From IMG/VR virus record IMGVR_UViG_3300029955_000001: DNA of 64,000 bases. The stretch is one strand, 5' to 3'. This document shows positions 22,279 to 39,700 of the stretch, piece by piece. Positions within the stretch are counted from its first letter, which is position 1; each line of letters starts with the position of its first letter. A program made the position numbers and the translations under genes. This DNA is from a virus (lineage: Duplodnaviria; Caudoviricetes). Under the pieces are notes generated by a model. The model had not been told where the DNA came from. It saw only the letters and a program-made list of their open reading frames with translations, and ran no database searches.

Positions 22279-22482
22279 TTAAATTTCTCCCAAATAAGGC
22301 GTTACTTTTCGTTGAAAACAAGTTTGTGCTAGGTTGTAAATAATAGAACGGGATAACGGAGATCCGTTTAAAGTGTCCGCTACTTCGTTACCCAATACAC
22401 CCTGCGCCACGCTAGCTACTAACTCATTAGCGTTAGCTAGTGTTACTAAAGTTCTTTCTGAATCTTGATTATTTAAACCCAT
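22279..22482 (-). CDS. Small hypothetical protein
   Basis: 67 aa; AGGA RBS; tightly packed in the operon. Confidence 0.6.
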   Translation of the reverse strand: MGLNNQDSERTLVTLANANELVASVAQGVLGNEVADTLNGSPLSRSIIYNLAQTCFQRKVTPYLGEI

Positions 22483-22517
22483 GATGTTTTCCTATGAAAA
22501 TAACTATTACGTCGCAT

Positions 22518-22730
22518 TTAATTTTGACCTTTGTATATCTTACACGCCTTAGCGCTAATGACGTTAAGTAAAGTGCATGTTGTTCCAATAATATCTGGAC
22601 TACACACAATACGATTTTGTATACTGAGAGCACCGAATATGGCATCTATTTTAACACCGGATTCGGTAGTGATGTCGTCATTCAGAATTGTGCCAAAAAC
22701 TGTTTTCATTTGATTACAGAACACGCCTTT
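22518..22730 (-). CDS. rpoB: vRNAP beta subunit (phiKZ gp178-like), exon 4 of 4
   Basis: Begins AAA GGC GTG (KGVFCNQMK) right after the intron terminal G at 22731; splicing restores GD-KGVFCNQMK, equivalent to bacterial GDK-x7-K. Confidence 0.88.
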   Translation of the reverse strand, partial: KGVFCNQMKTVFGTILNDDITTESGVKIDAIFGALSIQNRIVCSPDIIGTTCTLLNVISAKACKIYKGQN

Positions 22731-23083
22731 CCTTTTGTCCAATTAGTTCGTTAGACTAACCCGGTGTGCACTGACACCCGCCTACATTTTCATGTAGGAG
22801 CAGATCATATCTTCATCCTCTATTTCTAGTTAGGATGTTTCCCATTTCTGTCCACTTGGACTCTACACCGTGGTAAGCGGTTGATCGTTGAACCTTTTCC
22901 ATTTTACAGGAACTTGGCTGCTAAAGAGGATCTTAGATCCTACGGTTGCCCATTGTAATATCCGTTTCGTTTTTAGACCATGGCTTTGTCTTTCGACTCG
23001 CAGTGGTGAAACAGCTTTAGGGGGTTCCAGCAGTTAGAGAAAATTCATTTGAACATTACTAATCAAATGGACTATATTTTTTA
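22731..23083 (-). mobile_element. Group I intron beta-I3, ORF-less, 353 nt
   Basis: 5' exon ends in U (GGTGAT); P AACTGCTGGAA, Q CAGCCAAG, R GTTCAACGATCA, S GAAGATATGATC; P9 with GAAA loop; ends AAAAGG. Confidence 0.9.
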
Positions 23084-23998
23084 ATCACCTACACCAGCAG
23101 GAACTTCACCTGTGATGTATACTTTAATTGCTAACGTATCTAACGATAACGGATCACCTTCGATTCTAAAACCTTCATCTACGGAACCAGTATAGGCTGT
23201 TTTACCAGCCGCTCGATTACGCTTAGAGAATTCACGATCGTAAGTAGTTACAATACTACGCAATGAATCCGACATGTCTTCAATCATTCCGTTGTAAAAT
23301 ACCTCAATCCGTTCTATTTTACCAATCGTTTTAGCTTGTGGTGTTTGAGCACTTAATATACGTAATGTATCTAATGATTCTTCATCAAAGAGACCTGATT
23401 CAGCTGTAATAGCATCTTCGATTACACATAAAATACTCTCAGATTCCACCTTATCACCAGGTTTGACTAACCGACGTATACTTTGATCAAAATTAACAAC
23501 AATGTATTTTACCTTTGTTGTTGACGTAGATAACAACTTAGCTGCTCTTCTAGAAATAGCAGAGGAATCGTCTAGTGTGGCGTTTGATTCCATTAGCGCC
23601 GTCTTTACCATAATGCCAGATTTCCAAACAACATCGTTTGGATTGAAAAGATCTTTTTCAAAGAAACCTGTATTATAACAAATAAGCTCACTTGTTTTAA
23701 ATACCTGACCAGGGATCATATCTGTTTTCACAGAATGAGGGATCACTAAACCAGCAGCATTACCAAAACGTCTACCTAATTCATATCCAGTTGGTTTTTC
23801 ATCTCCGTCATATTGAACAATAATACCGTGTTCTGAAACAGAAATTACTTTACCAGGTTTCTTTGCGGTCATAGCAAACAGATCGCTTGTCCTGTGAGGT
23901 AACACTTGCTCGTAACCAGTACGAATTTGCGGTTGCGCATAACCTATACAAGACACGACGTGACTAGCTTGAACCGATGCAAAATTTACCCGTTTGGG
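23084..23998 (-). CDS. rpoB: vRNAP beta subunit, exon 3 of 4
   Basis: Begins CCC AAA CGG (PKRVNFASVQASH), in frame with track ORF 23081..23956; ends GVGD. Confidence 0.88.
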
Positions 23999-25434
23999 CC
24001 TTTTGTCCAGTGAGGTCGCTTTACTCTCCTCACCCGGTGTGTTAAGACACCCGCCTACACTTTCATGTAGGAGCAGACTATATCTTCATCCTCTTAGAAT
24101 AAGTAGGATGTCTTCTATTTCCCCAGGGCTTCCTAGGTACTGGCTGATAAGGCCATAGTCGTTGAACGTTCCTCGTATCGTTTCCGATCATTAGAGGCTT
24201 CGCTGCGGATTACCCAATCTTTATCTTTGTTACCGTACCCAGGTAATTATTCTGGCCGCTAGTCAGTTTCCTATACTAGTTTGGTAGATAAAGCTCTAAG
24301 GGACTTCCCGCCAATTAAAAAGAATTTCATTGAATATTACTATTCAATGAGACCTAGATTGTTTATTAAAATTAATACGGATAATATCCGTACCTATAAC
24401 CATCAGAAAAAACTTTTTCACCATTCGATTTAAGACGATAATTAAGTGCAGTTGTTGTCAACCTGTGCCACTTCGCGCACTCTACAGCGGAAGGATATAT
24501 TTTAAACTCACCATTTTCATTATTTACTACTTTTACGCACCGACTACATGAAAAATTATTTAACTCCAAATATGGATCAATAACTTCTCTCCATGGTGTT
24601 AAGTCATGCGCCCAGCGTATTTGAATAAAATTTGGTAAGACAGGTTGATCTTCGCGACGTATCCATTGAGAAAGCGTCGGTAACGCAATGTCCAAGTCTT
24701 TAGCTAACTCACTCATTTGGTTATATGTTGCTATTTCACCAGTAAGTACGTTACGAACACTAATCGCTTTGGAAGTGCTATTCTGCAAAAGAGCTTGCTC
24801 AACTGAAATAGGAATTATCCATGGTTCATTAGAGTGTGATCCGCGATACTGTTTTCGCTCAGGAAACACTCTTTCTTCACCAACAAAGATACGATAATTA
24901 ATTGCATCTTTCGACATACCCATAAAACGAGCACACTCAATAATACTTGGAAATTTTCTAATATTCCCAGTATCTATATCTCTAACCGAAATAGGAATAC
25001 ATTTTGGTGTAATTCCCATTGCACCAGCATGTTCCGCATTTCCTTGATAAGTAGTCCATTCTAAATTATCTAACCAATCATCACCTTTAACGGTGTTAAT
25101 GTGATTGACAACAAGTGAGGTTATGTCTACGCCGGGATGTTTAAAAACATAACACAGTAAACGATGTCTTCCCCATGTTAGGGTATAGTTATCATCACCA
25201 AATATCCGGTAATTTACATAGCCATCAGGATTTCTACTACCTTCCAAATTAATGCGTGTAGTTTTATTGATTACTCGACCATCAATAGAAATTACATAGT
25301 TCGAGTATCCTGGTATTTCATAATAACCAGGAAAATCAATACTTTCTTTTAATTCATGGTTATACATTTAACACTCCTTAATATTCAACATATTATAGTG
25401 TGTTAATTTTATTTTAATTCAAAACAATCTGTTA
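23999..25434 (-). mobile_element. Group I intron beta-I2, 1436 nt, with HNH ORF
   Basis: P AATTGGCGGGAAG, Q AATCCGCAGC, R GTTCAACGACTA, S GAAGATATAGTC; terminal G 23999; splicing joins DRDD to PKR. Confidence 0.9.
24372..25367 (-). CDS. Intron-encoded HNH homing endonuclease (NUMOD4-HNH with C-terminal NUMOD1/IENR1-like repeats)
   Basis: IPGYSNYVIS..GRV; RHRL; VNHINTVKGDD.LDNLEWTT..GN..HA; SIIECARFMG and SAVECAKWH repeats; AAGGAG RBS. Confidence 0.88.
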   Translation of the reverse strand: MYNHELKESIDFPGYYEIPGYSNYVISIDGRVINKTTRINLEGSRNPDGYVNYRIFGDDNYTLTWGRHRLLCYVFKHPGVDITSLVVNHINTVKGDDWLDNLEWTTYQGNAEHAGAMGITPKCIPISVRDIDTGNIRKFPSIIECARFMGMSKDAINYRIFVGEERVFPERKQYRGSHSNEPWIIPISVEQALLQNSTSKAISVRNVLTGEIATYNQMSELAKDLDIALPTLSQWIRREDQPVLPNFIQIRWAHDLTPWREVIDPYLELNNFSCSRCVKVVNNENGEFKIYPSAVECAKWHRLTTTALNYRLKSNGEKVFSDGYRYGYYPY

Positions 25435-27078
25435 ATCATCTCTATCTGAAGCTGGTGAAAGTAAAGCTGTGGTGGATATTAACGCAGTAGCTCCAGTTTC
25501 CCCAATCTTGTATCGGCGAGACATTCCACGTAATGAAGTGAACTGTGGGTCAGCTGATAAGTACGTATTAACCGCTACGTCCTTACTATCCGAAGTAGCT
25601 TCAGATATTGTACCCATATCGTTAGCGTGATAGATACGTGCGTTCTTAGTCATACTGCGACTATTACGACCACCAGTACCAGCAAATGTTACTGCTTCCA
25701 TTTCTTTCAGATTCTGAACTGGATTTATATCACTAACTAATGCTACGGATGGATCTTGCATAATGTTTTTCCATACAGCATAGGGATTCAAATCAATTGG
25801 TACTTTTGATTTTCCTATACGACCATTATGTCCACGAATAGCCCTTACAATTTCACCATAGACAGCCCCCGCCATACGCTCGTAACCTTTAATACGCATG
25901 TACTGCGAATCAAGTTCATCAGGATGTTTATCATTTAACAACATCTGACAGCTACGAATTAATAGATCTCTGAAATTTAACGGCTCTTTCATTTCTATTA
26001 ACAAATCACGTGTAATGGGATCAATATACATCTGGTATAACAAATCAATTTCACGAACATAACGAGCGCTAGCGCCGTTGTTCTCTAAGACATTTAAATA
26101 AATACCACGTTTGTCGAATTCGTGAACACTATACTGACGAATAACTTTATGGTATTCATTAAAACCAGCCAGTATCATGGATGCTTCTTTATTGTCTTTT
26201 TGGAACACTAAAGTCTCATCACTAAATACAATAGGATATTCATTTGGCATTAAGTTAACACGAGTCCCCGCAGGTACTCTACGTGGGTTTACTTTCAATA
26301 ACTTAATTAGTCTATCCAAACCAATTTCATACCCAAGAATAATACCAATTGGAATGGTGCGACCTAACACCTTTGCCTCAGCAAAATCAATTGGTTCTTT
26401 ATCTATATCAAGGCCGAGCAATTCCTCAATCGTGCCGAATGGTTGAAGAATACCGTCTGCTGTGATGTAGATAAAATCATTCTTATCTAGAACTAATAAC
26501 GCATCGCTTTCTCGTTGAACGCCATCTGAATTAACAGCGTGCCCAATAATGATTGATCCATCTTTTTCATAGATCGCTATTGATTCTCTGCCGTAAAGAG
26601 CTTCGCGTCTCGTGTGATCAAACTGTAAAGCAAATGTATACGTGTAGGCTTCATCGACGCGAATTTGCTGTGGATCAAATGCTACTTTCTGCTTAGGAAC
26701 AGCATTATTTTGAGACATCACAGACTGATGTTTTATTTCAGCCCATTTACTGATATCTTCTTCTGGCTCTTTTTCTTTAAAGGCAATGTTACTTGGCGTT
26801 GGTCGTTTTACATCTGGACGTTCGGCTGTTAATGTAAAACCACGGAACCCTAGCGCTAACGTGCTGTAAAGTTTAGGACAATCAAACAAATTATCAAACA
26901 CTGTACCAGGGTGCATACTTGTTACTGAGTCATCTGTTGGATCTAGTCCTTTAGCGACAATCTGATTGCGAAGCCATGTACCAGAGTCATTAACGCGTTT
27001 CTCGCTACGACTAACAAACACTGTACCGTAGTAACTAGTAAGCTTTACCGTATCTGGCGATGTCTTACGAATTGGAAG
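25435..27078 (-). CDS. rpoB: vRNAP beta subunit, exon 2 of 4
   Basis: Begins CTT CCA ATT CGT AAG (LPIRK); contains GTGGR, GTISEATSDSKDVAVN; the first 39 aa of the track ORF are intronic. Confidence 0.88.
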
Positions 27079-28399
27079 CATTCCAATTAAATGGACCATA
27101 TCATCATCCTCAACATTACTTGTTAGGATGCCTACCATTTCGGGACTATTAATCCCTACTCTACTTGCTTTAATTACTAAATTAATAGCAACCATCTGAT
27201 TTTACACAGATGTTATTATGCGATGATTTGCAATAGCTTTCGATGGCCTCTGAACACACTCCGTATATTAAAATAAATACTTAGGAGCTTCGTTGCGGAT
27301 TATGTCTTTTAATAACGTTTTTACTATTCTCAACACTTCCATTACTGGGTTGAGTATTACAGTGTGTTTCCACCTGTAAGTAGTAGTTATTAAAATTATA
27401 GACGTTTTCCCGCAGTTAGATAGGTTTTGTTGTACCGTATTACTACGATACGGGGACCGGTAAATGAACGTACAAAAATAAATTAAATTTAGAATAAGAC
27501 GTGGAAATTATTAATATTTTTTTCCAGTTCTTTTACAATGTCTTTAACGAGGACACCACTTGGGAGCTTAAACGTATCGTAAACTTCAAGGGCATTTCTA
27601 AAGACTTGTAATTTTCCATCAACAACAAACCAATAACGATAAATTTGTTTAAGTCTCATTACCAGTTCTTTTTCTACAGAATCACTTTTGAGATGTAGAT
27701 AAGTTAAAACGATTAAATACTCTTTTCGAGCTTTAATAAAAAGCTTTTTTAATTCATCGTTTTCTTTTGTTCTCAAATAAACTTCTTCGCCACCAAAAAT
27801 ATCGATAGGCCTATAATGTTGCAAACCATTAAATTCGATATGAATGTTTAACTTAGGTAAAAAGAAATCACTTCTTAGGAGAGATGGTGATAATCTAAAT
27901 TCTCTAATATGTTCAATATTAAAGTTTTTTAAACATAACTCGACAGCTTTCTCACCTTTTGATTCCATACAAATACGACAACCGGCTTTATTCGAAAGAT
28001 GACCGTTTGGTTTCTGCCAAAACGATCCATGCGTAGGACAAATTATTTCTACATGTTCTTTATTGCCGTTATACTTAACCTTACTATAATCGTATTTATT
28101 ACCATGAATTAACTTAGCGTCTTTTATAAATTCTTCTGTAGTTTTCTTATGTTCTTCTATAAAACATTTTTTACACCCACACCCAGCTAAATGTGAACAC
28201 GCTTTCTGATAAAATAACCCGTGTCTTAGACACGTAATAGTTAACTTATCATGAGCTAGAAATATTTCTGGTAGAAGATCATAGTTGTTTGTTTATAAAA
28301 CGGATGGTCTTTTATTTCTTAATTTATTTAAAAATGTTTCTTTGTTCATTGTAGCCTTTTTATCATACAGTAATAAAACCTATATAACAATGGCTTTCA
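27079..28399 (-). mobile_element. Group I intron beta-I1, 1321 nt, with a disrupted endonuclease ORF
   Basis: Guide sequence GTCCCCG (27457-27451) pairs with exon end TGGGGAT via U-G; P AACTGCGGGAAA, Q AATCCGCAAC, R GTTCAGAGGCCA, S GATGATATGGTC; terminal G 27079. Confidence 0.9.
27489..28349 (-). pseudogene. Intron-encoded endonuclease (two Zn-finger repeats + PD-(D/E)XK/Vsr-like domain) with premature TAA at codon 19
   Basis: ATG 28349 is in frame with track ORF 27489..27968 (286 codons plus stop); TAA at 28295-28293; C-x2-H...H...C-x2-C repeats; SDFFLP...IEFNGLQHY nuclease motif. Confidence 0.75.
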
Positions 28400-30205
28400 A
28401 TCCCCACGTTGTTTACGTAAAGAGTACTTGATACCATTCACCGAATAAGTACCGTCTTCTTTTATTACGGGTAACTTAAACTCCATCGTAGATGTTGTCC
28501 CGTCTACCGGAGTAATTCTAACCTTATGTTTGTCATACGAACCTAAAACACTATCTTCACGTTCTACCTCATAGCCCGTTACTGCGATCCCGGCCTTCTG
28601 AACATTCATCACCATACCAGCCACATCTCGAGGCATGATATCAGTAACGTAGAGACGATCAAAATCATGTAAACTCGATTTCAACATACTCTTATCATGG
28701 ATAGTTTGTTTGTCGGCAATCGTAGTTACTGATTCGATAGCTAGTTGTTTTGGCTTAATATCAATAAACTTATCTAACGTCGTCTTGCCATCTGGCGAAA
28801 CGATTGTTCTATAAGACTTTGATAACGTTTCATAACGTCGATACTCTGCAGCTGATAAACGACCAATATCTGCTAAACGATCACACACCTTCATTACACC
28901 ATCTTCTAGTGTTACAGGTTCATCAATAATGATATCTTCATGATGGCTCGTTGTGCTGTCGTTATGCGATCCGACATGTGCTCTAGAAATAGCTTCTAGT
29001 TCTGCTAAGTCCTCATCTAACCGAGCATCTAATTCTGCACTATGCGTTATATCGGCACCAGTATCGTCAGCGTGATCAGAATGTAGTGGATCGTAAGTTA
29101 CTTCACTAGGTGGCGGGTTCTCTGTTTGCTTCAATTCTACAGCACCTGTAGCGCTGTTAATAACAGGTAATGATGTTGCTTGTGTAATAACAGGCGAAGC
29201 ATTAGGGGCTGTTTGTACAGATACGCTATTATCGGAAGAATCAGTAGCGGTAACCGTAATATCAGATTTAATATCAACAGGAGTATTTTCTTTATCCCGC
29301 TGAACTTCATCTGTAACATCCGGCGAAGCAACAGTGCGCGCGTGAAACAAAGCCATCATCAAACGTAAGAAACGTTTCTGAATTTGAGACGGCGTTAAGC
29401 CCTTTATATTTGCTTCTGGATCTTCTTCCAATTCTTCTTCAGTAGCAATGCGCCATGAATTTAATTTACCCAGGTTAATGGCAAACCAGCGATTAGATTC
29501 AATAAATATTAAATTAACCTTATTCATTTCACCATCAGGCACGTGTGATAAAACAGAAGTTTTTCTATTATCACCTAACCATTTATAAATCTCTAAAATC
29601 ATTAAGCTATCAGGATTATTAAAGATCTTTACGACATGTTGCGATATACCAGATGATCCTAACCGAAGATCTGGTAAACTAGGTAATACAGTAGGCAATC
29701 TACAAGTAATGAAATTTTCTCTATCAGAAGTCGCCGTTACTACCGCTATATTTTTCCACACAGCTGATTGTGTATTCCACCATTTATAATACTCACTATA
29801 AAACGAACGTGGGTAACGATACATTTCTTGAAGAAATCCGTAATTATAAATAACTAGTGTATTCGGATCACGAGTGCTTATTTCAAGTGTTTTCATAAAA
29901 CGAAAACGACGATTTTTACTATGGAAATGTCTTATTAGCCCCATTGGATTAATAGCGTGCCTTCTTGGCATTCCCTTCTCATCTCCTAATTCAGTAATAT
30001 GACCAACGTTAATTGGTTTTGAAATATTACGAAACAAGAAGTCGTCAGGATCGGGGCCCATCACTATTGGGCTAGTTGATACATAGTGTAAAATAGATCT
30101 CTTTGGTAAATCTAACAGATCCATTTTTGGACATGGTGGATTCATCAAGTGCTCTGCTATTCTTACGCCATATTTTCTATACCAAATGTCATAAAAAAGA
30201 TTCAT
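28400..30205 (-). CDS. rpoB: vRNAP beta subunit (phiKZ gp178-like), exon 1 of 4; spliced product about 1525 aa
   Basis: 602 codons ending LRKQRGD at the intron 5' splice site; exons of 602+548+305+70 aa join in frame. Confidence 0.88.
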
Positions 30206-30210
30206 TTTAA

Positions 30211-30379
30211 TTATCCATCTGTTAGATTATAAAGAACAAAAGCAACTGTTGCTACGTCTATGCTGGAAGTAAACCTACCATCTGTTCCAACATAAGCTCT
30301 CTTTTTAGTAAGGTACTCGTCTACTTCTTTAACTGCTTCGTCAGAGTACGTTGCGTTACTGCTGACAGTATCGCCATCA
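30211..30379 (-). CDS. rpoC: vRNAP beta-prime subunit (phiKZ gp180-like), exon 2 of 2; absent from the ORF track
   Basis: T + GAT GGC GAT ACT... = (F)DGDTVSSNATYSDEAVKEVDEYLTKKRAYVGTDGRFTSSIDVATVAFVLYNLTDG*; completes ADFDGD. Confidence 0.9.
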
Positions 30380-32168
30380 CTTACATATTACTTATATTCA
30401 TAGTAATATGTTACTTTACATCACTGTAAAGAATAGACTATATCTTTATCTTTTACTTTCATTGTAAGAAAGCAGTCAGATATCTCCCGTTTCGACGGAT
30501 CTCCCGATCGGTCTACTTCCTTGCGGAATAGTCGTTGAGCCTTATCCATGCCCTTGTGAGGTTTAGGATCTTGGTTGCTATAGGGATTCTTAGAATCCAC
30601 GGTTGCCTCACAGTTTATTAATAAAACAATATTAATAAAAGCAGTACTGAACGCGATTAACTTTCAGTATAATGTAATATTCTTAAGCATTCACGCTCTG
30701 GTTTTCACCACACGTTGTAGCTATTACACTTTAGAGGGTTTCCAGCAATTAAAGAGATTTATTTTCATAGGCATTTCGGCCTAAGGACTCTGATTGATAT
30801 TAAATTCTTTTTACTAAATATTGGTTTTTTATAAGTGACTTATTACTAATAGCGTGCATAATCATTCCATTTCCTCTATTAAGAAAAACAGATGCTTTTG
30901 CATAACTTGTAAATAATTGTTCAGTATTTGTTTTTGTATCAGTGACTATTACACCAGTTGTTTTTCCAACCGGATTAGCTAAGTATACAGTTATTTCATT
31001 TTCTGTATACACAGGCCATGGCGTTTCATCATTTTCCATTTTAAAATCATAACCTTTTAATGGTCGGTGATTTCTTTCATCTTTTAAATAAGAATGTATA
31101 GTCATAACTGCGCAGTTTGTTGCTCTGCTGCAATCAGCCACACTGGAATATGTATTTATAACGCCAGTTACAATATTGCGTGTTTTAACTGAAGTAGGTA
31201 CTCCAATATGAAGTTTACGATCAATTGTTTTTTCTTGGTCAGTAACTTCTCGCCACGACGTCGCGTCTGTTTTAAGTTTGAATTGTAAAAATCCAGGATA
31301 CACTGGTTGATTTTTAGCTTTTACACGATACTTAATTGTATCTTTGTTTAAGTTTAAATAATCTGCGCAGTCTACGTATCCTCTAAATTCTTTTACTTCA
31401 CCAGTAACAACATTACGCATTAGAACTGTGGAGTCTATATTTTGTAGACCATTTTTCCATGCGTGAATGTTATTGTCTTTTCTTGTGGACCATTCTAAAT
31501 TTTCTAATCTATCATCACCGGGTATTCCGTTAATGTGGTTTGTTACAAGTGAATCAACATTAACGGTGTAAGGAAGCCATGCAAGACAAATTAATCTATG
31601 TCTTCCTATTGATGTATCGTTACCAACATCTGGAGTGATTTTATATCTAGCATACCCTGTATCGAAAAAATATTTCAATACTCTACCACTGGTCGCGTTA
31701 ATAAGATTGCCAAATTTATTAATAGCGTAATTACTAAAGCCTGGTATGTATGCGTAATCTGAAAATTTATAATGAAGCATTCCGCCTTCTGGGAATTTCC
31801 ACACTAGGTTACTTGGGTGACAGTTCTTTTTATTACCATCGACAAACATTACATCTATTCGGTGCCAGTGATGAAAAGGAACTGCAATTCTTTTAAAAGT
31901 TAATGCAACTAATACTGCAACTTTATAGTTTTGATACCCGTTCCACAAACACGCATAAACTAATAAATTTCCATCAGCATCTACGGTGTGGGGAATAATA
32001 CTGTTGTCACTTCCTTTTACCTCTCCCTGGTAATTAATGGAGTAAGCATTACTGGTAATAGGAATTCTAAAAAAACCTTCTACTTCGATATATTTTTCGA
32101 ACATGTTATTTACTTATGTTGTATCTACATAGTATACATATTAGAAAAGAATTTAATAATTTTACTTA
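30380..32168 (-). mobile_element. Group I intron in the beta-prime catalytic motif, 1789 nt, with tandem-HNH ORF
   Basis: Guide GAGTC (30790-30786) pairs with exon GACTT; adjacent ATCA pairs with 3' exon TGAT (P10); P AATTGCTGGAAA, Q AGCAACCAAG, R GCTCAACGACTA, S AAAGATATAGTC; terminal G 30380. Confidence 0.92.
30800..32104 (-). CDS. Intron-encoded HNH homing endonuclease with duplicated (degenerate + intact) HNH modules
   Basis: First module DVMFVDGNKKNCHPSNLVW; second VTNHINGIPGDDRLENLEWST..DN..HA; C-terminal SVADCSRA-type repeats. Confidence 0.88.
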   Translation of the reverse strand: MFEKYIEVEGFFRIPITSNAYSINYQGEVKGSDNSIIPHTVDADGNLLVYACLWNGYQNYKVAVLVALTFKRIAVPFHHWHRIDVMFVDGNKKNCHPSNLVWKFPEGGMLHYKFSDYAYIPGFSNYAINKFGNLINATSGRVLKYFFDTGYARYKITPDVGNDTSIGRHRLICLAWLPYTVNVDSLVTNHINGIPGDDRLENLEWSTRKDNNIHAWKNGLQNIDSTVLMRNVVTGEVKEFRGYVDCADYLNLNKDTIKYRVKAKNQPVYPGFLQFKLKTDATSWREVTDQEKTIDRKLHIGVPTSVKTRNIVTGVINTYSSVADCSRATNCAVMTIHSYLKDERNHRPLKGYDFKMENDETPWPVYTENEITVYLANPVGKTTGVIVTDTKTNTEQLFTSYAKASVFLNRGNGMIMHAISNKSLIKNQYLVKRI

Positions 32169-33625
32169 AAGTCAGCTCCTAGTCGTGATAATTTAGCACT
32201 GTGTGGAATTGTACTATTTACAAACGCACCATCTTTAATAGGGAACTCATAAGCAGTGTGTTCAGCATCCATTGGTTCCCACTGATCATTCAGTTCTGAC
32301 CGTACTTCTGATACTGTTGTTGTCTTTACAAAAGCTTTGCTAGGGTAAATACTACCAACACCAGTAACAGGATAACGTGTAATGAATATTGGAAATTTAT
32401 TCAACTCAGTATAACAAGATAAATAAAGTAGTTCACAGAACGTCAATGGATGTACATCATCTTTATTTCTTTCCAATGGCAATTCGTCTATATCTTGAAT
32501 TAGCTTGAAAGTGTTATCGGGTCCTTTATAAATAAGACCAAGATAGTGCCCTTCGATAATAATTGGTTTATGCCTGATAGCTTCTTCTGAGAAACTTGTA
32601 AGGACTTTTTCTATTCCTTCATCTGTCATCCATTTATCGAAGTATTGTGGTTTTAAAGCTACTTCCTCACAATGTAAAGTATTAACATTGACCAGCTTAG
32701 CTGGCGCTCCTACTTCTGTGAATACTTTAGATAAGAACCCATGTCGAATATGATATCGTGCTACAGGCATAATAGATTTTAATAACTGATACAACCCAAC
32801 GATTGTGTTATTAAAACCTACAGTACCTGGCGCGCCTAAATAAGATACACTGGTATCCATTCCTGTAATGACATTACGTGTACCGTTCATCAAACCACGG
32901 GTTGCCCATTTACCTAGTAAGAGTTTATTCTTACCTTCTAACATGGCTTTGATAGTATTGTAAATTTCGTTAAAAGTTAGTTGTAAGTTATACCGTGCTC
33001 TGTCTAGCATTTCGGCATTGGTCTTTACAGCACTTTCAGAAATTGTATTTGCTATTGTTAGTAGCTGTCGGTAAAGTTTATTGATTTCATCTTCACGTGG
33101 GCGGCCATCTGGGCCTATTTCTACATCTCGATAACCAGCAGGCATAACCAGTACTTTTGGCGTTAAAGCAACTTTCTTATATTTATTTATCATGAGAATG
33201 CTTTGTTCGCGTAACGGACTGCCGGTTTGCTCAAACTCTATATTTTCCCAATGTTCAAGGAAGAAATTGAATCCTGTTTTACCAACTAGATTATTAGATC
33301 TTTCAAAATTCTTTAGTTCTTCATTCCAGGTAACATACTCTGTACCGTTAATAATACCACCATACAAGCGTTTAAGCTTAACAACTGCTTCGTAGATTAT
33401 TGGATGAAAAATAGGTATCTTAATATCGATAAAAGAGAAACGAAATAACCGTCTGTCATCTCCTTCTTTACCAAAAATAAGTGTAGAAAACAAACCATCT
33501 GGGTTGAATAAATTACTAGAGCCATCAAAGATATCTAGCTTAGTAACAGGTCGCATATTTTGGAGTTTATTGGGTGTAAGCTCCAAAAGAGTTATGTTAA
33601 AAGGTATATCAGAACGTTGTGCCAT
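32169..33625 (-). CDS. rpoC: vRNAP beta-prime subunit (phiKZ gp180-like), exon 1 of 2; spliced product about 541 aa
   Basis: FNPDGLFS..IFG, PAGYRD, GTRNVIT, ITRYP motifs; ends LGADF. Confidence 0.9.
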
Positions 33626-33708
33626 TAGGCTTCCTTTCTGTAATTAAAACAGATTACGCTAAAAGTATGAATAGTGACACTTAAAGCTTAACTCATTTGA
33701 GGTAATAC

Positions 33709-36700
33709 ATGGCTAATAAAACAAAGTTCGAATTAGACCAATTTGGATTCGATTCATCGTTAGATATTTCTAATCTTGATTTTAGCAAAGCACCTAAGAT
33801 TAAAAATGATCGATCGCCAACAACACATACTGCTATAGGAGTTGCGAAAGGTATAAAAAAGTCCGTTATTACTTCGGCTTTTATTACCAATGCAATTAAA
33901 GCTGCTCTTCCAAAAGGATATGGTACGGCAGCAGATTTTGTTGGAAAGTCCACAAGTGGCATTAAGAATCTATACAATGATACTGCTCGGGATATTAAAC
34001 CACTAATTAACGATATAAAACGGACAACAGATAAAGTTGTCACGGCAGCAGATTCGGCAATTCCAAAAAACATTGCTGAGAAAATAAAGAAATGGACAAA
34101 GATTGAACAGAGCGCGTATCGCAGTATGTCGCCGGAAGAACAACGCGATGCAGCTTTGCGCATGCAGCTAGGTGAGATTTTTAACTTACAAACGCAAACA
34201 ACATTAAAACAATCTGCCAGAGATACAGCTAGAGAAAACATTAAAACTGGACTAGAACATAGTAGACATAAAGATCAAATGTCGCAGCTGGACGCTATGC
34301 GGATTAGTCTTCAGCAGATAGCAAATTATCAGCAAAAAATAGATTCTGGTTTTCAGCGTAAATCTTTGGAACTACAGTTCCGCCATTACTACGTTGCAAA
34401 AGACACGTTAGAAGAAATGCGTGTTTTTAATACAAACGCAATGCTTCAGTATCAGACTATTGCAAAGAATACAGGCTTACCTGATTTTGTAAAGTTAAAG
34501 ACATCTGAACGCCTTAAAGAAGTTTTACGCAATAACTTTATTAACGCCGCTAGCGCTAAGATTGATGCAAAACGTAAAGCATTTTTTAAAGACTTTACTG
34601 ATAGTTTATTACGCCAAGCTAAAGGTAAGCTATCGGGCTTTAGCAACGGCGCTAGAGAAGGTATGGGATATGCTGATCACTTAGATCAAGCTGGTGGTAT
34701 GGCGAGTATGGCAGATAACCCGCATGAAGAACGTGGTGATATGGCAGGGACGTTTTTCGGAAGTTTATTATCTGGTTCACTAGGTACTTTTCTAGGTAAG
34801 AAAGCAAAACCACTAATAAATAAATATACTAAGGGGAAAGTTGGTAACAGCATTCATCGTGTTGGTCATAAGTTACAGTATTTTCACGACGATGCGCAAC
34901 AAGCCGCATTAGAAACAGCAAATAATTGGGACCCAAAGAAACATGGTAAAGTTCTAAATGCTGTTGCTAAGTTTCTTGGGGATGCTGTTAAGAACACAAC
35001 TATTTCATCTACGGGTTTAAAGAGCGATAATCTTAAAGACATGCAACAACCTGCTCCGTTTAGTAGGCAGATAGCAAAATCTATTACTGAAATTATCCCT
35101 GGTTATTTAGCACGCATGTTACGTGAAATGCAGATGACGCGTACAGGCAAACCATCTGAGCTTACGCATTATGATTTCACACGAAATAAATTTGTTGGGG
35201 AAACAACGCTTAGAAGAACTATTCATGAAAGCATTGTTAACAAGACCGCTGTTAAGGACATCAGAGCTAGCGCTGATAGAATAATTGATACTGTTGACAA
35301 GAATAAAAAATTATCACCAGAAGCACGTAAGCATATTGGTGAACAATTAGTTCGTAACAATATCATTAAGAATATATCGGGCACAAAACGTAATTTAACT
35401 GATGCTAAACATTTTCAAGGTAAAGCAGAGCCACATGCAGCTGCGTGGATTTCTGCTTATAACGAATATCTCGGTAACGATGAAGCTGGTCATAAAGAGA
35501 ATCATGTTCGTGAAATGTTTAGAGATGTCGGGCAACACATGGAAGATGTTCGTTCCACTGTTGAGGACTATGATACAGCTGGTTACGGTTCGCATCTTAG
35601 TAAAATGGGATTTACTAAGACCGGTGAAGACACAATCAGTGTTGCTACTCTTACGAAGAAAGAACGCGATCTTTTAATTAAGCTTGGTATTCTTTATAAG
35701 GATAGAAACTACATTAATGTTAGCGCTATTAATAGTGGTAATATTAAGTTGATTGAATCAATGGGTTTAAAAATACCTAGTGGCAACTATGTTAATTTGC
35801 AGGGAATTAGCGAGATGTACGCTAGTGGGTCTGGCGCAGATGAAGGTGATAGTGGTCCAGGTAGACGTCGTAGACGTTCTAGGGTTCCGTTTGGCCCTCG
35901 TAAACCACAAGGTCCTAGTGCTGGTTTACACGCTCCATCTTCTCATGCCGATCAGCAGTTTCAGCATAATACGCAACAACGCAATATGCAATCGAAATTC
36001 GATCATGAAACTCGAGAAGCTATGCGTCATCAAGGTAAACCGTTTGCACACCAGACTGGTAACAATCCGCTAAATAGTCCGGTTTATGAACATCATTTAA
36101 AGTTAGCAAAGGAACGTGCTAAGCAAATATCGAAAGAAAACGCGCAAGGACATTCTAACGCATCAAGGTTTGAAGCTTTCAAGAACTTTGGTAAGCGTAA
36201 GATGGCTGATTTGCATTCTTTTGCGGAACATCACCAAATTAATAATCGTGCACACGCCGCTGTTGGTGGGGTAAGGAATACCCTTGAAGACATGCTTCAT
36301 TTTGGAACGCATAAGGCATCAGAAGCTAAGACGATGTTTCACGGTGCTGTACATGAGGCACATGCTAAAGCAACAGCTTTTAAGGACTCAGTTAAAGAAG
36401 CAGATTTAAAGAATAAAGCTGCATCTCATACTGGCATGGCTAAAAATACTGCTTCAGGGTTGTTTGAAGCGGCGCATGATAAAGCGGTTGGTTGGAAAGA
36501 CAGAATCAAAGCTAAAGCAAAAGAAACAGTAACCGCAACGAAACACGCTGTTGAAGAATTAAGTAAGCACGGTATGTTCAAAAAACATATTGGGATGGCA
36601 GATTTAATTCCTGGTAAGAAAGGTAAGCCAGTATCTGCTTTAGCGTCAATCGATGCTACTCTAAAACGTATTGAGAAGAAACTTAAAGACGGCATTGGCA

Positions 36701-39700
36701 CAGGCGGTGGCACTGGTAAAGTAAAAGGTACGCACTGGTGGAATAAATCTGTGTTAGGTGCGGCCGGCGACCTAGGTATGGGCGCTGTACATCTTGCCGG
36801 ACATGCTGCTCATATGGCAAATAGTGTTGTTGGTGGTGCTTTTTCTAATGCTTGGAAAATTGGTAAGTTTGGTGTTAGTGCAACAGCTAACACACTTGGC
36901 TGGGGTAAAGACAAGCTAATGAACTTACGAGATGTCTGGGTAAAAGGAGAAGACAAACCACGTTTACTTGCTTCTAAATTAAGAAACGGTTATTACGTCG
37001 ATCAAAAGACAAGAAAACCTGTTAGAAAGTTTAAGGATATTACTGGCACGTTACTGGATGAAAACGGCGATATTGCTTTGTACGATTATGAAATACCTAG
37101 AGCTTATTTGAAAGGTAAGCTAGGAGCTGTTTTACTATCTTCTGTTGGTGCTGTATTCAAAGGTGTAAATAGTTTGGTTAACGCTTACACTGGTGTGATT
37201 GGCACTGCTGTTAAAGCAGGTATATGGACAGGTAAGAAATTATTTAGTTTAACAAAACGTCCACAAGACGTTTATTCCAGAGACGATCTTACTACGCCTA
37301 AATTAACAGCAAGAACAATGCGAGCAGGCGGTTATGTCTCAGCCGTCACTGGTAAAGTTATTAATCATCCTGGTGATATTGACGGCCCTGTAAACATGGT
37401 AGTAAATGGCAAAGTAGAGCAAGCAATGTCTGCTGCTGAGGTAGCTAGTGGTGTACTGGATAGGAATGGCAAACCAATTAAAACTGGTATTAGAAAACTA
37501 CTTGGCATAGCTGGCAGTATTATTGGTTTTGCTGGACGTCAAGCTATGTCAATTGGTAGAAGCATCAACAAGACCATTGGTCATGCTGTTACTGCTGGTA
37601 AACATGTTGTTGGTTTTGCTAAAGATACATTATTGCACGGTATTACCGGTTGGGGTAAGGATCACACTGGAACTAGCATTGGTAAAAAGGGTGCTGATAT
37701 TGGCATTAAATTACTAACAGAAATTCGCAACATATTAAAATCTAGATTACCAGAATCTAAGAAGCATATTCTTGGTGATATAGATGGAAGTGGAATTCGT
37801 GAAGGTAGTTTTCAAGATGAAGTGCGTAAAGGTTTAGTCCCAGGAGAATCTTCATTAGATGCTTACGCTAAAGCACATCCTTCTAGTGGTGGTAAAGGCG
37901 GTGTCCTTGGAATGCTTGGCGGGTTATTTGGTAAGAAAGATAAGGGTGAAGGTGGCGATGGTAAGAAAGACGAGGAAGGTCACCCAGTTCGTGATATGGT
38001 AGAAGGTGAGTTAGTTGAACGTGGTATTGAGAAAGGTGCTGGTAAGTTTGGTCGTGCTTTAAAGTGGACCAAAAACTTAGCAAAGGGAGGGGCTAGTAAA
38101 GGTCTTAAACTTCTTTCAAAAATACCTGGTTTAAGTAAGTTCGCTAAACTCGCAGCGATGTTAGGCGGTACTGCTGAAGCTGCTAATTTAGCCGGTAGTG
38201 CTTTATCAAGCACTAGTGCCGCGCCTGGTGTAATGGAAGCCGGTGGGGTTGCCAGTAAAGCGGGAATATTATCTAGAGTAGCAGGGATTGGTAAAGCTGG
38301 TTTAGGCATGGCTAAAGGCGCAATGAGTGGTATAGGTGGATTAGCAGGTAAACTACTCATGCCGTTGACTGCTCTTATGTCAGCTGGTGAAGGAATTGCT
38401 GGCGAAGCTAATGGCCAAAGAATAGATAGTATTGGTAAGGTTATCCCAAAAGGCTGGGGTATGCTTAACCCGTTTGAGTGGGCGATGAATGGCGGTCGTT
38501 ATGCTGGCAATAAAATTAATTCTGGTTTAGATAGCATTACTGGTGGTCAGGGTATAGGTAGTAAAATTTACGACTGGACGCATGGTGATGAAGCTAAGAA
38601 ACTATCAACAGCATCTACACCTGAAGCAATTGCAGCTGCTAAAGCTAGGATAGAAAAAGCCAAGATAGATAGAGCTAAAACACAAGCGGAAGCTAATGCA
38701 GCAGGTAATAATGCTTCTGGTGTTCCATCTACATCGGACGCTAATCGTTCTGTGAATTCAGCAGAAGACTTAACAAACGATGAACGTGATAAACTGACTA
38801 CAATGACGCATGGTCAGAAACTTGCGTACATGGCTTCTAAGAACACTGCTAAAACACATAAAGCTGAATCAGGGATTAATCCAGGTCCTGGGCCGATGCC
38901 TGTGTCAGCCGCCGCTTTAGCAGCACTTGCTCCTCCTAAACCTAAACCATTAACACCTGAAGAAAAAGCAGCGGCTGATAAAGCAAAAGCAGATAAAACT
39001 GCTAAAGCTAAAGCTGCTGCTGTAGCTGCCGCTCCTAAAGAAGAAGGTTTCTGGAGTAGAGTAGGCAGTAGCATATCAGAAGGAGCCAGTACCGCTTACA
39101 ATGGTGCAATTAACGCAACGGGAGCAGGGATTGATGCTGTTGCTAATGCTGACTATTCTGTAAAAGGCATAGCTAACATGGGACACCATGCTGTTGCTGG
39201 CGCTAGTAATCTGTACAAAAGCGCTGTTAGTGCAACAGCATCAGGTATTGAGAACACAGTCAATACGGTGAAGTCTGGTGTATCTGCTGTTAAAAGCGCG
39301 TATAACTCTGCTGTAGATACTGCTGCTGATGCAATGATGGCCGTAGCTGGTGCCCCTAGAAAGGCAGCAGAGGCCGCTAGAGCAACGTATAACAAAGCGA
39401 TTGCTCTCGCATCAGATGGAATGCTTGCTCTTGCCACAGGCCCTTCTATCGTAGGTAAAGCTTATAACGCTGCGGTAGATAAAACAGCAGACGCTATGTT
39501 AGTTGCTTCAGGACTTCCATCAAAAGCTGCAAAAACTGCTAGAGAGGAATATAACAAAGCAATTGCTGCTGCTGGTAGCGCGTATGGTTTTGCAGTAAGT
39601 ACTGTGAAGAGTGGGATAGCGGCTGTTGGTAAGTCCGTTTCTGGTGTCGTAAATGATGCAAAAGCCGGATGGAATGAAGTAGATGAAAACGGTAATGAAG

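What the first reader, a model, noticed from the sequence alone, without database searches (positions are those of the whole stretch)
30380..32168. Tandem-HNH endonuclease guarding the DFDGD codons: candidate phage-versus-phage weapon
The 434-aa ORF has two NUMOD4-HNH-like modules. The first lacks the catalytic His pattern and the second is intact, which suggests a dead module reused for DNA binding. It is paralogous to the 331-aa beta-I2 nuclease. An intron-encoded HNH nuclease in a PhiPA3 RNAP gene (gp210) has been reported to interfere with co-infecting phiKZ. This genome carries up to three such nucleases against three sites of one essential operon, i.e. a potentially multiplexed interference system.
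Basis: partly seen in the sequence, partly recalled or inferred. Interest (0 to 1): 0.7.

Follow-up and report, generated by a model that had tools for sequence, protein, structure and literature searches.

The report
Mobile intron nuclease in phage polymerase
A self-splicing mobile intron carrying its own DNA-nicking enzyme sits inside the catalytic codons of a giant peat-soil phage's RNA polymerase gene; the element is real and active, but it is a relative of one already known in phage phiKZ, and the idea that it is a weapon against rival phages is untested.

Summary
Bases 30380-32168 (minus strand) are a 1,789-nt group I intron that splits the virion RNA polymerase beta' gene inside the Phe codon of ADFDGD. 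Peat metatranscriptome contigs join the exons exactly there.

The 434-aa ORF is an I-HmuI-type HNH homing endonuclease. It has:
- an intact catalytic module (His190, Asn202, Asn211);
- three helix-turn-helix repeats;
- an N-terminal degenerate copy of the same module. This is supported by profile-profile comparison (91%, E 1e-6), by a Foldseek match of module 1 alone to I-HmuI (E 1.3e-5), and by Phe87 standing where the catalytic His should be, with no third-residue helix.

It is not new in kind. phiKZ gp179 is a homolog with the same tandem build, in the same beta' motif, 2 nt upstream. At least 300 protein clusters share module 1. The scan has met DFDGD introns before in at least 26 other genomes.

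The published PhiPA3 gp210 "weapon" corresponds to the neighbouring 331-aa nuclease (49.5% identity), not to this one. The third intron ORF belongs to another nuclease family and carries an in-frame stop. A fourth intron has no ORF.

Among 80 related phage contigs, 70 lack the beta' intron and 10 carry full, truncated or ORF-less versions. That pattern fits selfish homing. A competitive side effect is plausible but unshown.

The parts
32169..33625 (-). Virion RNAP beta' exon 1 (ends ...LGAD + first two bases of the Phe codon)
   Evidence: ORF. tblastn of intron-less FLC9 gp41 residues 1-485 covers 33625-32168 at 60% identity. 314 phage records carry homologs annotated as RNAP beta/beta'.
30380..32168 (-). 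Group I intron, 1,789 nt, inserted within the Phe codon of ADFDGD
   Evidence: 5' exon ends in U and the intron ends in G. Rfam RF00028 match. RNA contigs of runs X10 and X11 skip exactly 1,789 nt between 30378/9 and 32168/9.
30800..32104 (-). 434-aa intron ORF: I-HmuI-type HNH homing endonuclease (stop codon included)
   Evidence: Pfam HNH_3 42.3 bits (cut-off 24.8) and NUMOD1 37 bits. phrog_59 HNH endonuclease, 1.4e-35. PDB profile hit to I-HmuI 1u3e, E 3.5e-10. AlphaFold pLDDT 89, with Foldseek top hit 1u3e at E 1.5e-9.
31775..32104 (-). Module 1 (aa 1-110): degenerate copy of the I-HmuI N-terminal sheet plus HNH beta-hairpin. Phe87 (31844-31846) stands where the catalytic His should be, and there is no third-residue helix.
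   Evidence: hhalign against module 2: 91%, E 1.1e-6. Foldseek of module 1 alone against 1u3e: E 1.3e-5, TM 0.68, rmsd 3.0 over 97 columns. Column statistics. Secondary structure.
31439..31774 (-). Module 2 (aa 111-222): intact HNH catalytic module. His190 codon at 31535-31537; Asn202, Asn211 and His214 invariant.
   Evidence: Pfam HNH_3 at residues 168-212. Invariant columns in a 19-sequence alignment. Aligns to the I-HmuI stretch VDHKDG...NLRW...KIN.
30806..31432 (-). Three beta-beta-alpha-alpha (NUMOD1-like helix-turn-helix) DNA-binding repeats (aa ~225-433)
   Evidence: Pfam NUMOD1 at 231-259 and a weak I-HmuI_NUMOD-like hit at 314-355. The secondary-structure pattern repeats three times in the model. 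Internal repeats also appear in BLASTP against the 331-aa protein.
30380..30811 (-). Ribozyme core, 3' of the ORF. It also occurs as a ~423-nt circular RNA (junction G30380 to U30802).
   Evidence: Rfam hit 30414-30811. Conserved core blocks are shared with the phiKZ and metagenomic introns. A 'goes back 423' joint appears in two RNA runs.
30211..30379 (-). Beta' exon 2 (last base of the Phe codon, then DGDTVSS...LTDG and stop)
   Evidence: tblastn of FLC9 gp41 residues 486-538 covers 30378-30220 at 75% identity. Translation.
23999..25434 (-). Context: beta-gene intron I2 with the 331-aa HNH ORF (24372-25367), the ortholog of PhiPA3 gp210. It follows the two Asp codons that end the beta exon (...SDRDD); the PhiPA3 gp210 intron is likewise described as lying after two conserved Asp (site identity inferred, not aligned).
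   Evidence: tblastn: 49.5% identity over 97% of the protein to PhiPA3 gene 210. Rfam 92.5 bits. RNA joint skips 1,436 nt. The gp210 site is described in PMC11620839.
27079..28399 (-). Context: beta-gene intron I1. Its ORF belongs to a different nuclease family and is interrupted by an in-frame TAA.
   Evidence: Rfam 55 bits. RNA joint skips 1,321 nt. Translation shows a stop at codon 19 of a ~286-codon frame. PHROG 'homing endonuclease' families match.
22731..23083 (-). Context: ORF-less beta-gene intron I3 (353 nt)
   Evidence: Rfam 56.6 bits. RNA joints in three runs with 200-255 nt on each side.

Best explanation
This is a mobile group I intron in the virion RNA polymerase beta' gene of an uncultured phiKZ-like jumbo phage from peat. 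It sits inside the Phe codon of the catalytic ADFDGD motif.

Shown: the intron splices precisely in nature. The ribozyme core also accumulates as a circular RNA.

Inferred from homology to I-HmuI and gp210: the 434-aa ORF is an I-HmuI-type HNH homing endonuclease. It would recognise the uninterrupted ADFDGD-coding DNA of intron-less alleles and nick one strand with the single active site in module 2 (His190, Asn202, Asn211). Recombinational repair would then copy the intron into the cut allele.

Inferred from fold, from loss of the catalytic residues and from strong conservation of the remaining ones: the N-terminal module 1 is an ancient, catalytically dead duplicate of the same DNA-binding sheet plus HNH hairpin. 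It most likely acts as an extra DNA-contact domain on the side of the nick opposite the three helix-turn-helix repeats, lengthening the recognition site.

Any harm to co-infecting intron-less relatives would be a by-product of homing, as described for PhiPA3 gp210. It is not a demonstrated function here.
For: Intron:
- Rfam RF00028 hit.
- U/G splice-site rule and an in-frame join restoring ADFDGD.
- The closest isolate, FLC9, has uninterrupted beta' and beta genes that align collinearly with the exons.
- Metatranscriptome contigs join 30378/9 to 32168/9, and also join the exons across the three beta introns. 'Goes back' joints show circular core RNA.

Endonuclease:
- Pfam HNH_3 and NUMOD1 above their cut-offs.
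- I-HmuI is the only significant PDB match, by sequence profile and by fold.
- Catalytic His/Asn columns are invariant in 19 homologs.

Dead duplicate:
- Profile, fold and residue-column evidence.
- Asp89, Asn94 and Asn99 are nearly invariant in 109 members, which indicates purifying selection.

Same element elsewhere:
- phiKZ gp179 has modules 1 and 2 and lies in a group I intron in the same GADFDGD motif of gp180.
- Four metagenomic ~430-aa homologs lie in the same gene context, behind a ~486-aa beta' exon 1. For the three with DNA held, the ADF|DGD break was confirmed.

Mobility signature:
- 70 of 80 IMG/VR relatives are intron-less. 10 are interrupted: one by a full 597-aa ORF, one by a truncated 208-aa ORF, eight with no nuclease ORF detected, of which six are short introns of ~375-425 nt.
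- Within the genus Phikzvirus, phiKZ has the intron and SL2 and PA7 lack it.
Against: - No biochemical data: cleavage, nick position, strand and recognition length are all inferred.
- The Rfam score is only just above threshold (51.9 against 50).
- RNA libraries can contain DNA, so an intron-less DNA allele could in principle give the exon-exon joint. It would not explain the circle junctions or all four joints together.
- One of the two supporting contigs has only 29 nt on one side of the joint.
- The DNA-binding role of module 1 rests on analogy. Fifteen of 109 family members keep a His at the catalytic column.
- A P1 helix placing the ORF in the P1 loop can be drawn (GACUU with GAGUC at 30790-30786), but comparison with the other introns gave no clear covariation.
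Confidence: 0.85

Rival explanations
1. One reading: the intron nucleases of this operon are kept by selection as a multiplexed weapon. They would cut the virion-RNAP genes of co-infecting intron-less relatives at several sites and so stop them making infectious progeny. This overlaps with the best explanation; it differs in claiming selection for the effect.
For: - PhiPA3 gp210 nicks phiKZ gp178 and lowers phiKZ fitness when it reaches the phiKZ DNA (PMC11620839).
- The neighbouring 331-aa nuclease is the gp210 ortholog: 49.5% identity, and it likewise follows two conserved Asp codons of the beta gene.
- The 434-aa ORF is intact and conserved.
- The operon is transcribed in peat samples.
- Both targets are essential virion genes.
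Against: - One of the three intron ORFs has an in-frame stop, and the fourth intron has no ORF.
- At this same beta' site, relatives show truncated and ORF-less introns. That is the decay expected of selfish homing genes, not of a maintained weapon.
- The 30-nt core of the target differs at 8-12 positions in the nearest known intron-less phages, so cross-cutting is uncertain.
- The gp210 effect required artificial import or shared nuclei.
- No co-infecting relative of this uncultured phage is known.
Confidence: 0.2
2. Module 1 is conserved for a role other than DNA recognition. It could be a pseudo-dimer partner that positions or stabilises the active module, a determinant of import into the phage nucleus, or an RNA-binding helper of splicing.
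For: - Module 1 is strongly conserved (Asp89, Asn94, His96, Asn99, Trp102) in at least 300 clusters and always sits at the N-terminus.
- The gp210-type enzymes work without it (the 331-aa protein has module 2 only).
- Selective import of such nucleases matters in nucleus-forming phages (PMC12908238).
Against: - The fold matched is the DNA-contacting N-terminal part of I-HmuI.
- No maturase activity is known to me for HNH intron proteins (own knowledge, not searched).
- Tandem-module proteins occur at several different insertion sites, which suits a modular DNA-binding add-on.
- Nothing here tests import or RNA binding.
Confidence: 0.2
3. Both modules are active, so the enzyme makes a double-strand break with two HNH sites.
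For: - There are two HNH-like hairpins in one chain.
- 15 of 109 family members have His at the module 1 catalytic column.
Against: - In this protein the column is Phe87, and the preceding acidic position is Met.
- The helix that carries the metal-binding Asn/His is absent in the model.
- Pfam HNH_3 matches only 19 residues of module 1, below threshold.
Confidence: 0.04
4. The intron is fixed and the nuclease no longer homes. The ORF would be a recent relic or would have lost its target.
For: - Other intron ORFs in the same operon are decaying.
- ORF-less introns are common at this site.
Against: - The full-length ORF keeps all catalytic residues.
- Its closest homologs (72%, 63% and 53% identity) are the same length.
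- Most relatives still offer empty sites.
Confidence: 0.08

Closest known systems
phiKZ gp180 / gp179 intron (Pseudomonas phage phiKZ virion RNAP beta' N-terminal subunit gene)
   Same: - Same gene and same GADFDGD motif.
- Group I intron (Rfam 92 bits).
- The HNH ORF is homologous over aa 1-300 (34% identity, E 1e-48) and carries both module 1 and module 2.
- Same neighbours: a gp181-like giant protein upstream on the other strand and the beta gene downstream.
   Different: - The phiKZ intron sits after the Asp codon (GAT|TTC), 2 nt upstream of the site used here (GAC TT|T).
- gp179 is 357 aa, so it has fewer C-terminal repeats.
- The beta' proteins are only ~38% identical.
- phiKZ splicing was not seen in one long-read transcriptome (PMC10914365), whereas splicing is seen here.
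PhiPA3 gp210 (intron HNH endonuclease that interferes with phiKZ; Birkholz et al. 2024, PMC11620839)
   Same: - I-HmuI-type HNH nuclease in a group I intron of the same virion RNAP operon.
- Homologous from module 2 onward.
- Its true ortholog (331 aa, 49.5% identity) lies 5 kb away in this window.
   Different: - gp210 sits in the beta gene after two conserved Asp codons, not in beta'.
- It lacks module 1.
- Its nicking and competition effects are measured, whereas nothing is measured for the 434-aa protein.
I-HmuI (Bacillus phage SPO1 DNA polymerase intron; PDB 1U3E)
   Same: - The only significant PDB match, for the whole protein and for module 1 alone.
- Same order of parts: N-terminal sheet, HNH motif, helix-turn-helix.
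- It is a nicking homing enzyme.
   Different: - I-HmuI has 174 aa, with one module and one HTH.
- This protein has a dead extra module and three HTH repeats.
- Sequence identity is ~20%.
- The host gene is different.
Group I introns at the DFDGD motif of Goslar-like jumbo phage RNAP genes
   Same: Same hotspot, same intron class, and some carry HNH ORFs. Goslar's beta' match also stops at about residue 493.
   Different: - Different phage lineage.
- Some are twin or ORF-less introns.
- None of the notes retrieved in three look-ups mentions the tandem dead module.

Membership tests
Group I self-splicing intron (Rfam RF00028) | Covariance-model score at or above the curated gathering score | tested here: met
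   51.9 bits against 50, E 6.6e-11, at 30414-30811. This is marginal, but three sister introns in the operon score 55-92.5.
Group I self-splicing intron (Rfam RF00028) | 5' exon ends in U, intron ends in G, and the join restores the reading frame | tested here: met
   GAC TT | ...TAAG | T GAT GGC GAT restores ADFDGD and is collinear with intron-less FLC9 gp41.
Group I self-splicing intron (Rfam RF00028) | Precise excision at the RNA level | tested here: met
   RNA-library contigs of two runs skip exactly 1,789 nt. Circular core RNA junction also seen. Caveat: these are contigs, and one side of one joint is only 29 nt.
Group I self-splicing intron (Rfam RF00028) | P1 helix with a G-U pair at the splice site, supported by covariation | tested here: inconclusive
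   A 5-bp helix (GACUU with GAGUC) can be drawn just 3' of the ORF. Comparison with the other introns did not give clear covariation.
I-HmuI-type HNH homing endonuclease (Pfam HNH_3 + NUMOD1) | HNH_3 and NUMOD1 domains above the Pfam cut-offs | tested here: met
   HNH_3 42.3 bits (cut-off 24.8); NUMOD1 37 bits (cut-off 22.8).
I-HmuI-type HNH homing endonuclease (Pfam HNH_3 + NUMOD1) | Catalytic His and the two Asn of the beta-beta-alpha metal motif | tested here: met
   His190, Asn202 and Asn211 are invariant in 19 homologs and align to the I-HmuI VDH...NL...IN residues. Met for module 2 only, not for module 1.
I-HmuI-type HNH homing endonuclease (Pfam HNH_3 + NUMOD1) | I-HmuI fold | tested here: met
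   Foldseek against 1u3e: E 1.5e-9 for the whole protein and E 1.3e-5 for module 1.
   No NUMOD4 hit for either module even at E<=10. The N-terminal sheet is recognised only by fold.
I-HmuI-type HNH homing endonuclease (Pfam HNH_3 + NUMOD1) | Site-specific nicking of the intron-less allele and intron homing | not testable with these tools
   Needs purified protein and crosses. The only indirect support is the patchy distribution of the intron.
Intron endonuclease acting in phage-phage interference (PhiPA3 gp210 type) | Orthology to gp210 | tested here: not met
   The 434-aa protein is 31% identical to the window's gp210 ortholog, only from module 2 onward, and lies in a different gene.
Intron endonuclease acting in phage-phage interference (PhiPA3 gp210 type) | Cuts a co-infecting relative's allele and lowers its fitness | not testable with these tools
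   The phage is uncultured. Target cores in the nearest intron-less phages are 18-22 of 30 bases identical.

The most novel reading that the evidence does not exclude
The gp179-type enzymes, with a dead HNH module in front of a live one, form a distinct and so far undescribed class of long-footprint nicking homing endonucleases (at least 300 clusters). The pseudo-nuclease domain would read DNA on the far side of the nick. This would let them keep hitting the ADFDGD-coding site across diverged jumbo phages, and so act as an effective competition factor alongside the gp210-type enzyme in the same operon.
Probability: 0.15. Interest if true: 0.6.

Novelty: new member of a known kind. Interest (0 to 1): 0.38.

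Why it matters
The element adds an environmental, actively splicing example to the small set of jumbo-phage RNA polymerase introns. That set became interesting once PhiPA3 gp210 was shown to tilt competition between co-infecting phages.

Two points could be useful to specialists:
- phiKZ gp179 and at least 300 related clusters share an unrecognised dead-plus-live tandem HNH build. This gives a concrete hypothesis for how these nickases reach long, specific sites, and phiKZ is a culturable system in which to test it.
- The ADFDGD site is a hotspot occupied at three positions within 3 nt, and by introns at every stage of decay. It is therefore a good natural system for studying the homing cycle in giant phages.

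Neither point changes current understanding.

Tried and rejected
- BLASTP of module 1 against module 2 gave nothing significant (E 0.19). Only profiles and folds show the duplication.
- Pfam NUMOD4 was not detected.
- No near-identical intron DNA exists in the INPHARED phages, only 60-97-nt patches.
- The window's whole genome is not held, so introns and HNH genes could not be counted genome-wide, and chimallin (the phage-nucleus shell protein) could not be sought.
- A single-protein scan of IMG/VR found one truncated locus.
- My first regular expression for ADFDGD misclassified 14 full-length genes. They were re-read by ORF length.
- P1/guide-sequence pairing: the conserved AGUCC element after the ORFs fits some introns but not others. 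I therefore do not claim as shown that the ORF lies in the P1 loop.
- Locus L004 has no G at the inferred 3' end of its intron. This is unresolved.
- Literal phrase searches for tandem, degenerate or duplicated HNH in homing endonucleases returned only Cas9, Cap5 and other systems. This is a narrow search and no proof that the build is undescribed.
- RNA depth was not used to rank the ORF against the exons, because the laid data are contigs.
Full report
**What is there.** The minus strand of the window carries the virion RNA polymerase operon of a phiKZ-like jumbo phage. A 487-aa ORF (32162-33625) ends ...LGADFK-stop. It is followed by a 434-aa ORF (30800-32104), then by non-coding sequence and a short frame that begins DGDTVSS. 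Reading the DNA directly, exon 1 ends GCT GAC TT at 32169 and the intervening sequence ends ...GTAAG at 30380. Exon 2 begins T GAT GGC GAT at 30379, so removing 30380-32168 restores ADFDGD in frame. These are exactly the finding's coordinates.

- Rfam's group I intron model matches 30414-30811 at 51.9 bits (gathering score 50). It also matches three further places in the adjacent beta gene, at 55, 92.5 and 56.6 bits.
- The closest cultured relative is Burkholderia phage FLC9, with 60% identity in beta'. It has uninterrupted beta' (gp41, 542 aa) and beta (gp40, 1,514 aa) genes.
- The FLC9 proteins align collinearly with two beta' exons and four beta exons of the window.

**Splicing is seen in nature.** The stretch occurs in peat and permafrost metagenomes and in metatranscriptome libraries. 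I laid the contigs of four RNA libraries on 22300-33800. They gave joints that skip exactly 1,789 nt (30378/9 to 32168/9; two runs, with 29 and 72 nt on the shorter side), 1,321 nt, 1,436 nt and 353 nt (the last in three runs). Each matches a predicted intron.

Two 'goes back' joints also appear. One joins G30380 to U30802 (423 nt, two runs) and the other joins 23999 to 24357 (359 nt). They indicate circular RNAs made of the ribozyme cores, cut after a U at or just beyond the end of the intron ORF. This is the normal circularisation chemistry of group I introns.

RNA libraries can contain DNA, and these are contigs, so amounts cannot be compared. An intron-less DNA allele could mimic one exon-exon joint. 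It would not explain the circles or all four joints together.

**The protein.**
- Pfam places HNH_3 at residues 168-212 (42.3 bits) and NUMOD1 at 231-259.
- A profile of 19 homologs matches only I-HmuI (1U3E) in the PDB. It aligns His190, Asn202 and Asn211 with the I-HmuI catalytic motif, and these columns are invariant.
- An AlphaFold model (pLDDT 89) has I-HmuI as its only significant Foldseek match.
- The model also shows three beta-beta-alpha-alpha repeats after the nuclease.

**The tandem module.** BLASTP of residues 1-110 against 111-235 finds nothing, but other tests do.
- hhalign of the two halves of the family alignment gives 91% probability, E 1.1e-6, over 80 columns. It places Phe87 opposite His190 and Asn99-Leu100 opposite Asn202-Leu203.
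- Pfam HNH_3 touches residues 84-102 below threshold.
- Module 1 folded alone (pLDDT 89, pTM 0.83) matches I-HmuI at E 1.3e-5, TM 0.68, rmsd 3.0 Å over 97 columns, with nothing else significant.
- The model repeats the strand-helix pattern of module 2 up to the beta hairpin, but lacks the helix that carries the third catalytic residue.
- In 109 family members the 'His' column of module 1 reads F 48, Y 27, H 15, V 7. Asp89, Asn94 and Asn99 are nearly invariant.

**How common the build is.** Among the 120 best homologs, 108 have module 1 followed by module 2 and one more has two module 1 hits before module 2, which with phiKZ gp179 gives the 109-110 tandem members tabulated above; the window's 331-aa nuclease has module 2 only. 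A profile of module 1 alone finds 300 cluster representatives at E<=1e-10. In the best 150 it lies almost always at residues 1 to about 113 of proteins of 350-690 aa.

Four ~430-aa homologs lie in the same gene context, behind a ~486-aa beta' exon 1; for the three with DNA held, the ADF|DGD break was confirmed. Longer tandem members sit elsewhere, for example in a beta gene. A literal literature search found no description of this build in homing endonucleases, but that search is narrow.

**It is the phiKZ gp179 element.** tblastn finds PHIKZ179 at 34% identity over residues 1-300.
- In phiKZ, gp180 ends ...PLGAD-stop and gp179 follows.
- A group I core scores 92 bits.
- FDGDTVS... then resumes before gp178.

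The literature lists gp179 among predicted phiKZ intron endonucleases and gp180 among interrupted RNAP genes (PMC11512511, PMC10914365). The phiKZ intron lies after the Asp codon, 2 nt upstream of the site used here. Other loci use one or the other position, and one uses the position between them. The scan's earlier notes record DFDGD introns in at least 26 other genomes, with the same closest known element. I reached that element independently.

**The competition idea.** The cited paper is accurate: PhiPA3 gp210 nicks phiKZ gp178 and reduces phiKZ fitness when it reaches phiKZ DNA (PMC11620839). The gp210 ortholog in this window is the 331-aa nuclease of beta intron 2, at 49.5% identity over 97% of its length, following two conserved Asp codons as the gp210 intron is described to. 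The 434-aa protein is only 31% identical to it, and only from module 2 onward. The two are therefore separate arrivals, not a within-genome duplication.

The third intron ORF belongs to another nuclease family and has an in-frame TAA at codon 19. The fourth intron has no ORF.

Of 80 IMG/VR relatives with 43-65% beta' identity, 70 are intron-less at ADFDGD. Of the 10 that are interrupted, one has a full 597-aa tandem ORF, one has a 208-aa remnant, and eight have no nuclease ORF detected; six of these are short introns of ~375-425 nt and two are ~870-1,000 nt. Within Phikzvirus, phiKZ has the intron while SL2 and PA7 lack it. This is the invasion-decay-loss pattern of selfish homing genes.

The 30-nt target core differs at 8-12 positions in the nearest known intron-less phages. 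A competitive by-product is plausible, but nothing here shows it.

**Verdict.** The 'multiplexed weapon' is an analogy. The element is a new member of a known kind. Two modest additions come out of the work: an unrecognised tandem build shared with phiKZ gp179, and direct evidence of splicing and core circles in the environment.

Noticed in passing
window 30380-30802 and 23999-24357 (minus strand): RNA contigs contain head-to-tail junctions (G30380 joined to U30802, 423 nt, in two runs; 23999 joined to 24357, 359 nt). They imply circular ribozyme-core RNAs. In the beta' intron the cut falls at the stop codon of the nuclease ORF, so the released 5' piece would carry the ORF without its stop codon.
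   Followed up: partly
window 27489-28349 (minus strand): The ORF of beta intron 1 reads through ~286 codons (Cys/His-rich N-terminal part, then an ...IEFNGLQH nuclease part) but has an in-frame TAA at codon 19. Only the 159-aa C-terminal piece is an open ORF. PHROG 'homing endonuclease' families match; Pfam does not.
   Followed up: partly
window 24372-25367 (minus strand): The 331-aa HNH ORF of beta intron 2 is the ortholog of PhiPA3 gp210 (49.5% identity, 97% coverage). It follows the two Asp codons that end the beta exon, as the gp210 intron is described to. Close copies also occur in Serratia and Pectobacterium jumbo phages (50%).
   Followed up: yes
window 32169/30379; L002 (phiKZ) 5945/7389; L005; L074: Introns in the ADFDGD motif sit at three positions within 3 nt: after GAY (phiKZ, L005, L049-type), after GAC T (L074), and after GAC TT (this window, L003). 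The HNH ORFs of both groups are homologous, so either the introns arrived separately or the site has shifted.
   Followed up: partly
L013-L092 (IMG/VR relatives): 70 of 80 related beta' genes are intron-less. L075 has a ~2.3-kb intron with a 597-aa tandem HNH ORF. L072 has the same intron with the ORF cut down to 208 aa. L049, L050, L064, L071, L074 and L082 have ORF-less introns of about 375-425 nt. Together these are a snapshot of the homing cycle.
   Followed up: yes
L004 5306-5795: In this metagenomic relative the inferred intron does not end in G (...CATA|T GAT GGA GAT), although its 5' side pairs well with a GAGUCC element. This could be a sequencing error or an unusual 3' splice site.
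   Followed up: no
window 22731-23083 (minus strand): The ORF-less 353-nt intron in the last part of the beta gene is spliced out in contigs of three independent RNA runs, with 200-255 nt on each side. This is the best-supported junction of the four.
   Followed up: yes
window 33709-41610 (plus strand): A 2,633-aa protein lies divergent from the RNAP operon, in the position of phiKZ gp181 (tail-associated lysin). The same neighbour appears in the metagenomic loci, where it carries weak SLT hits.
   Followed up: no
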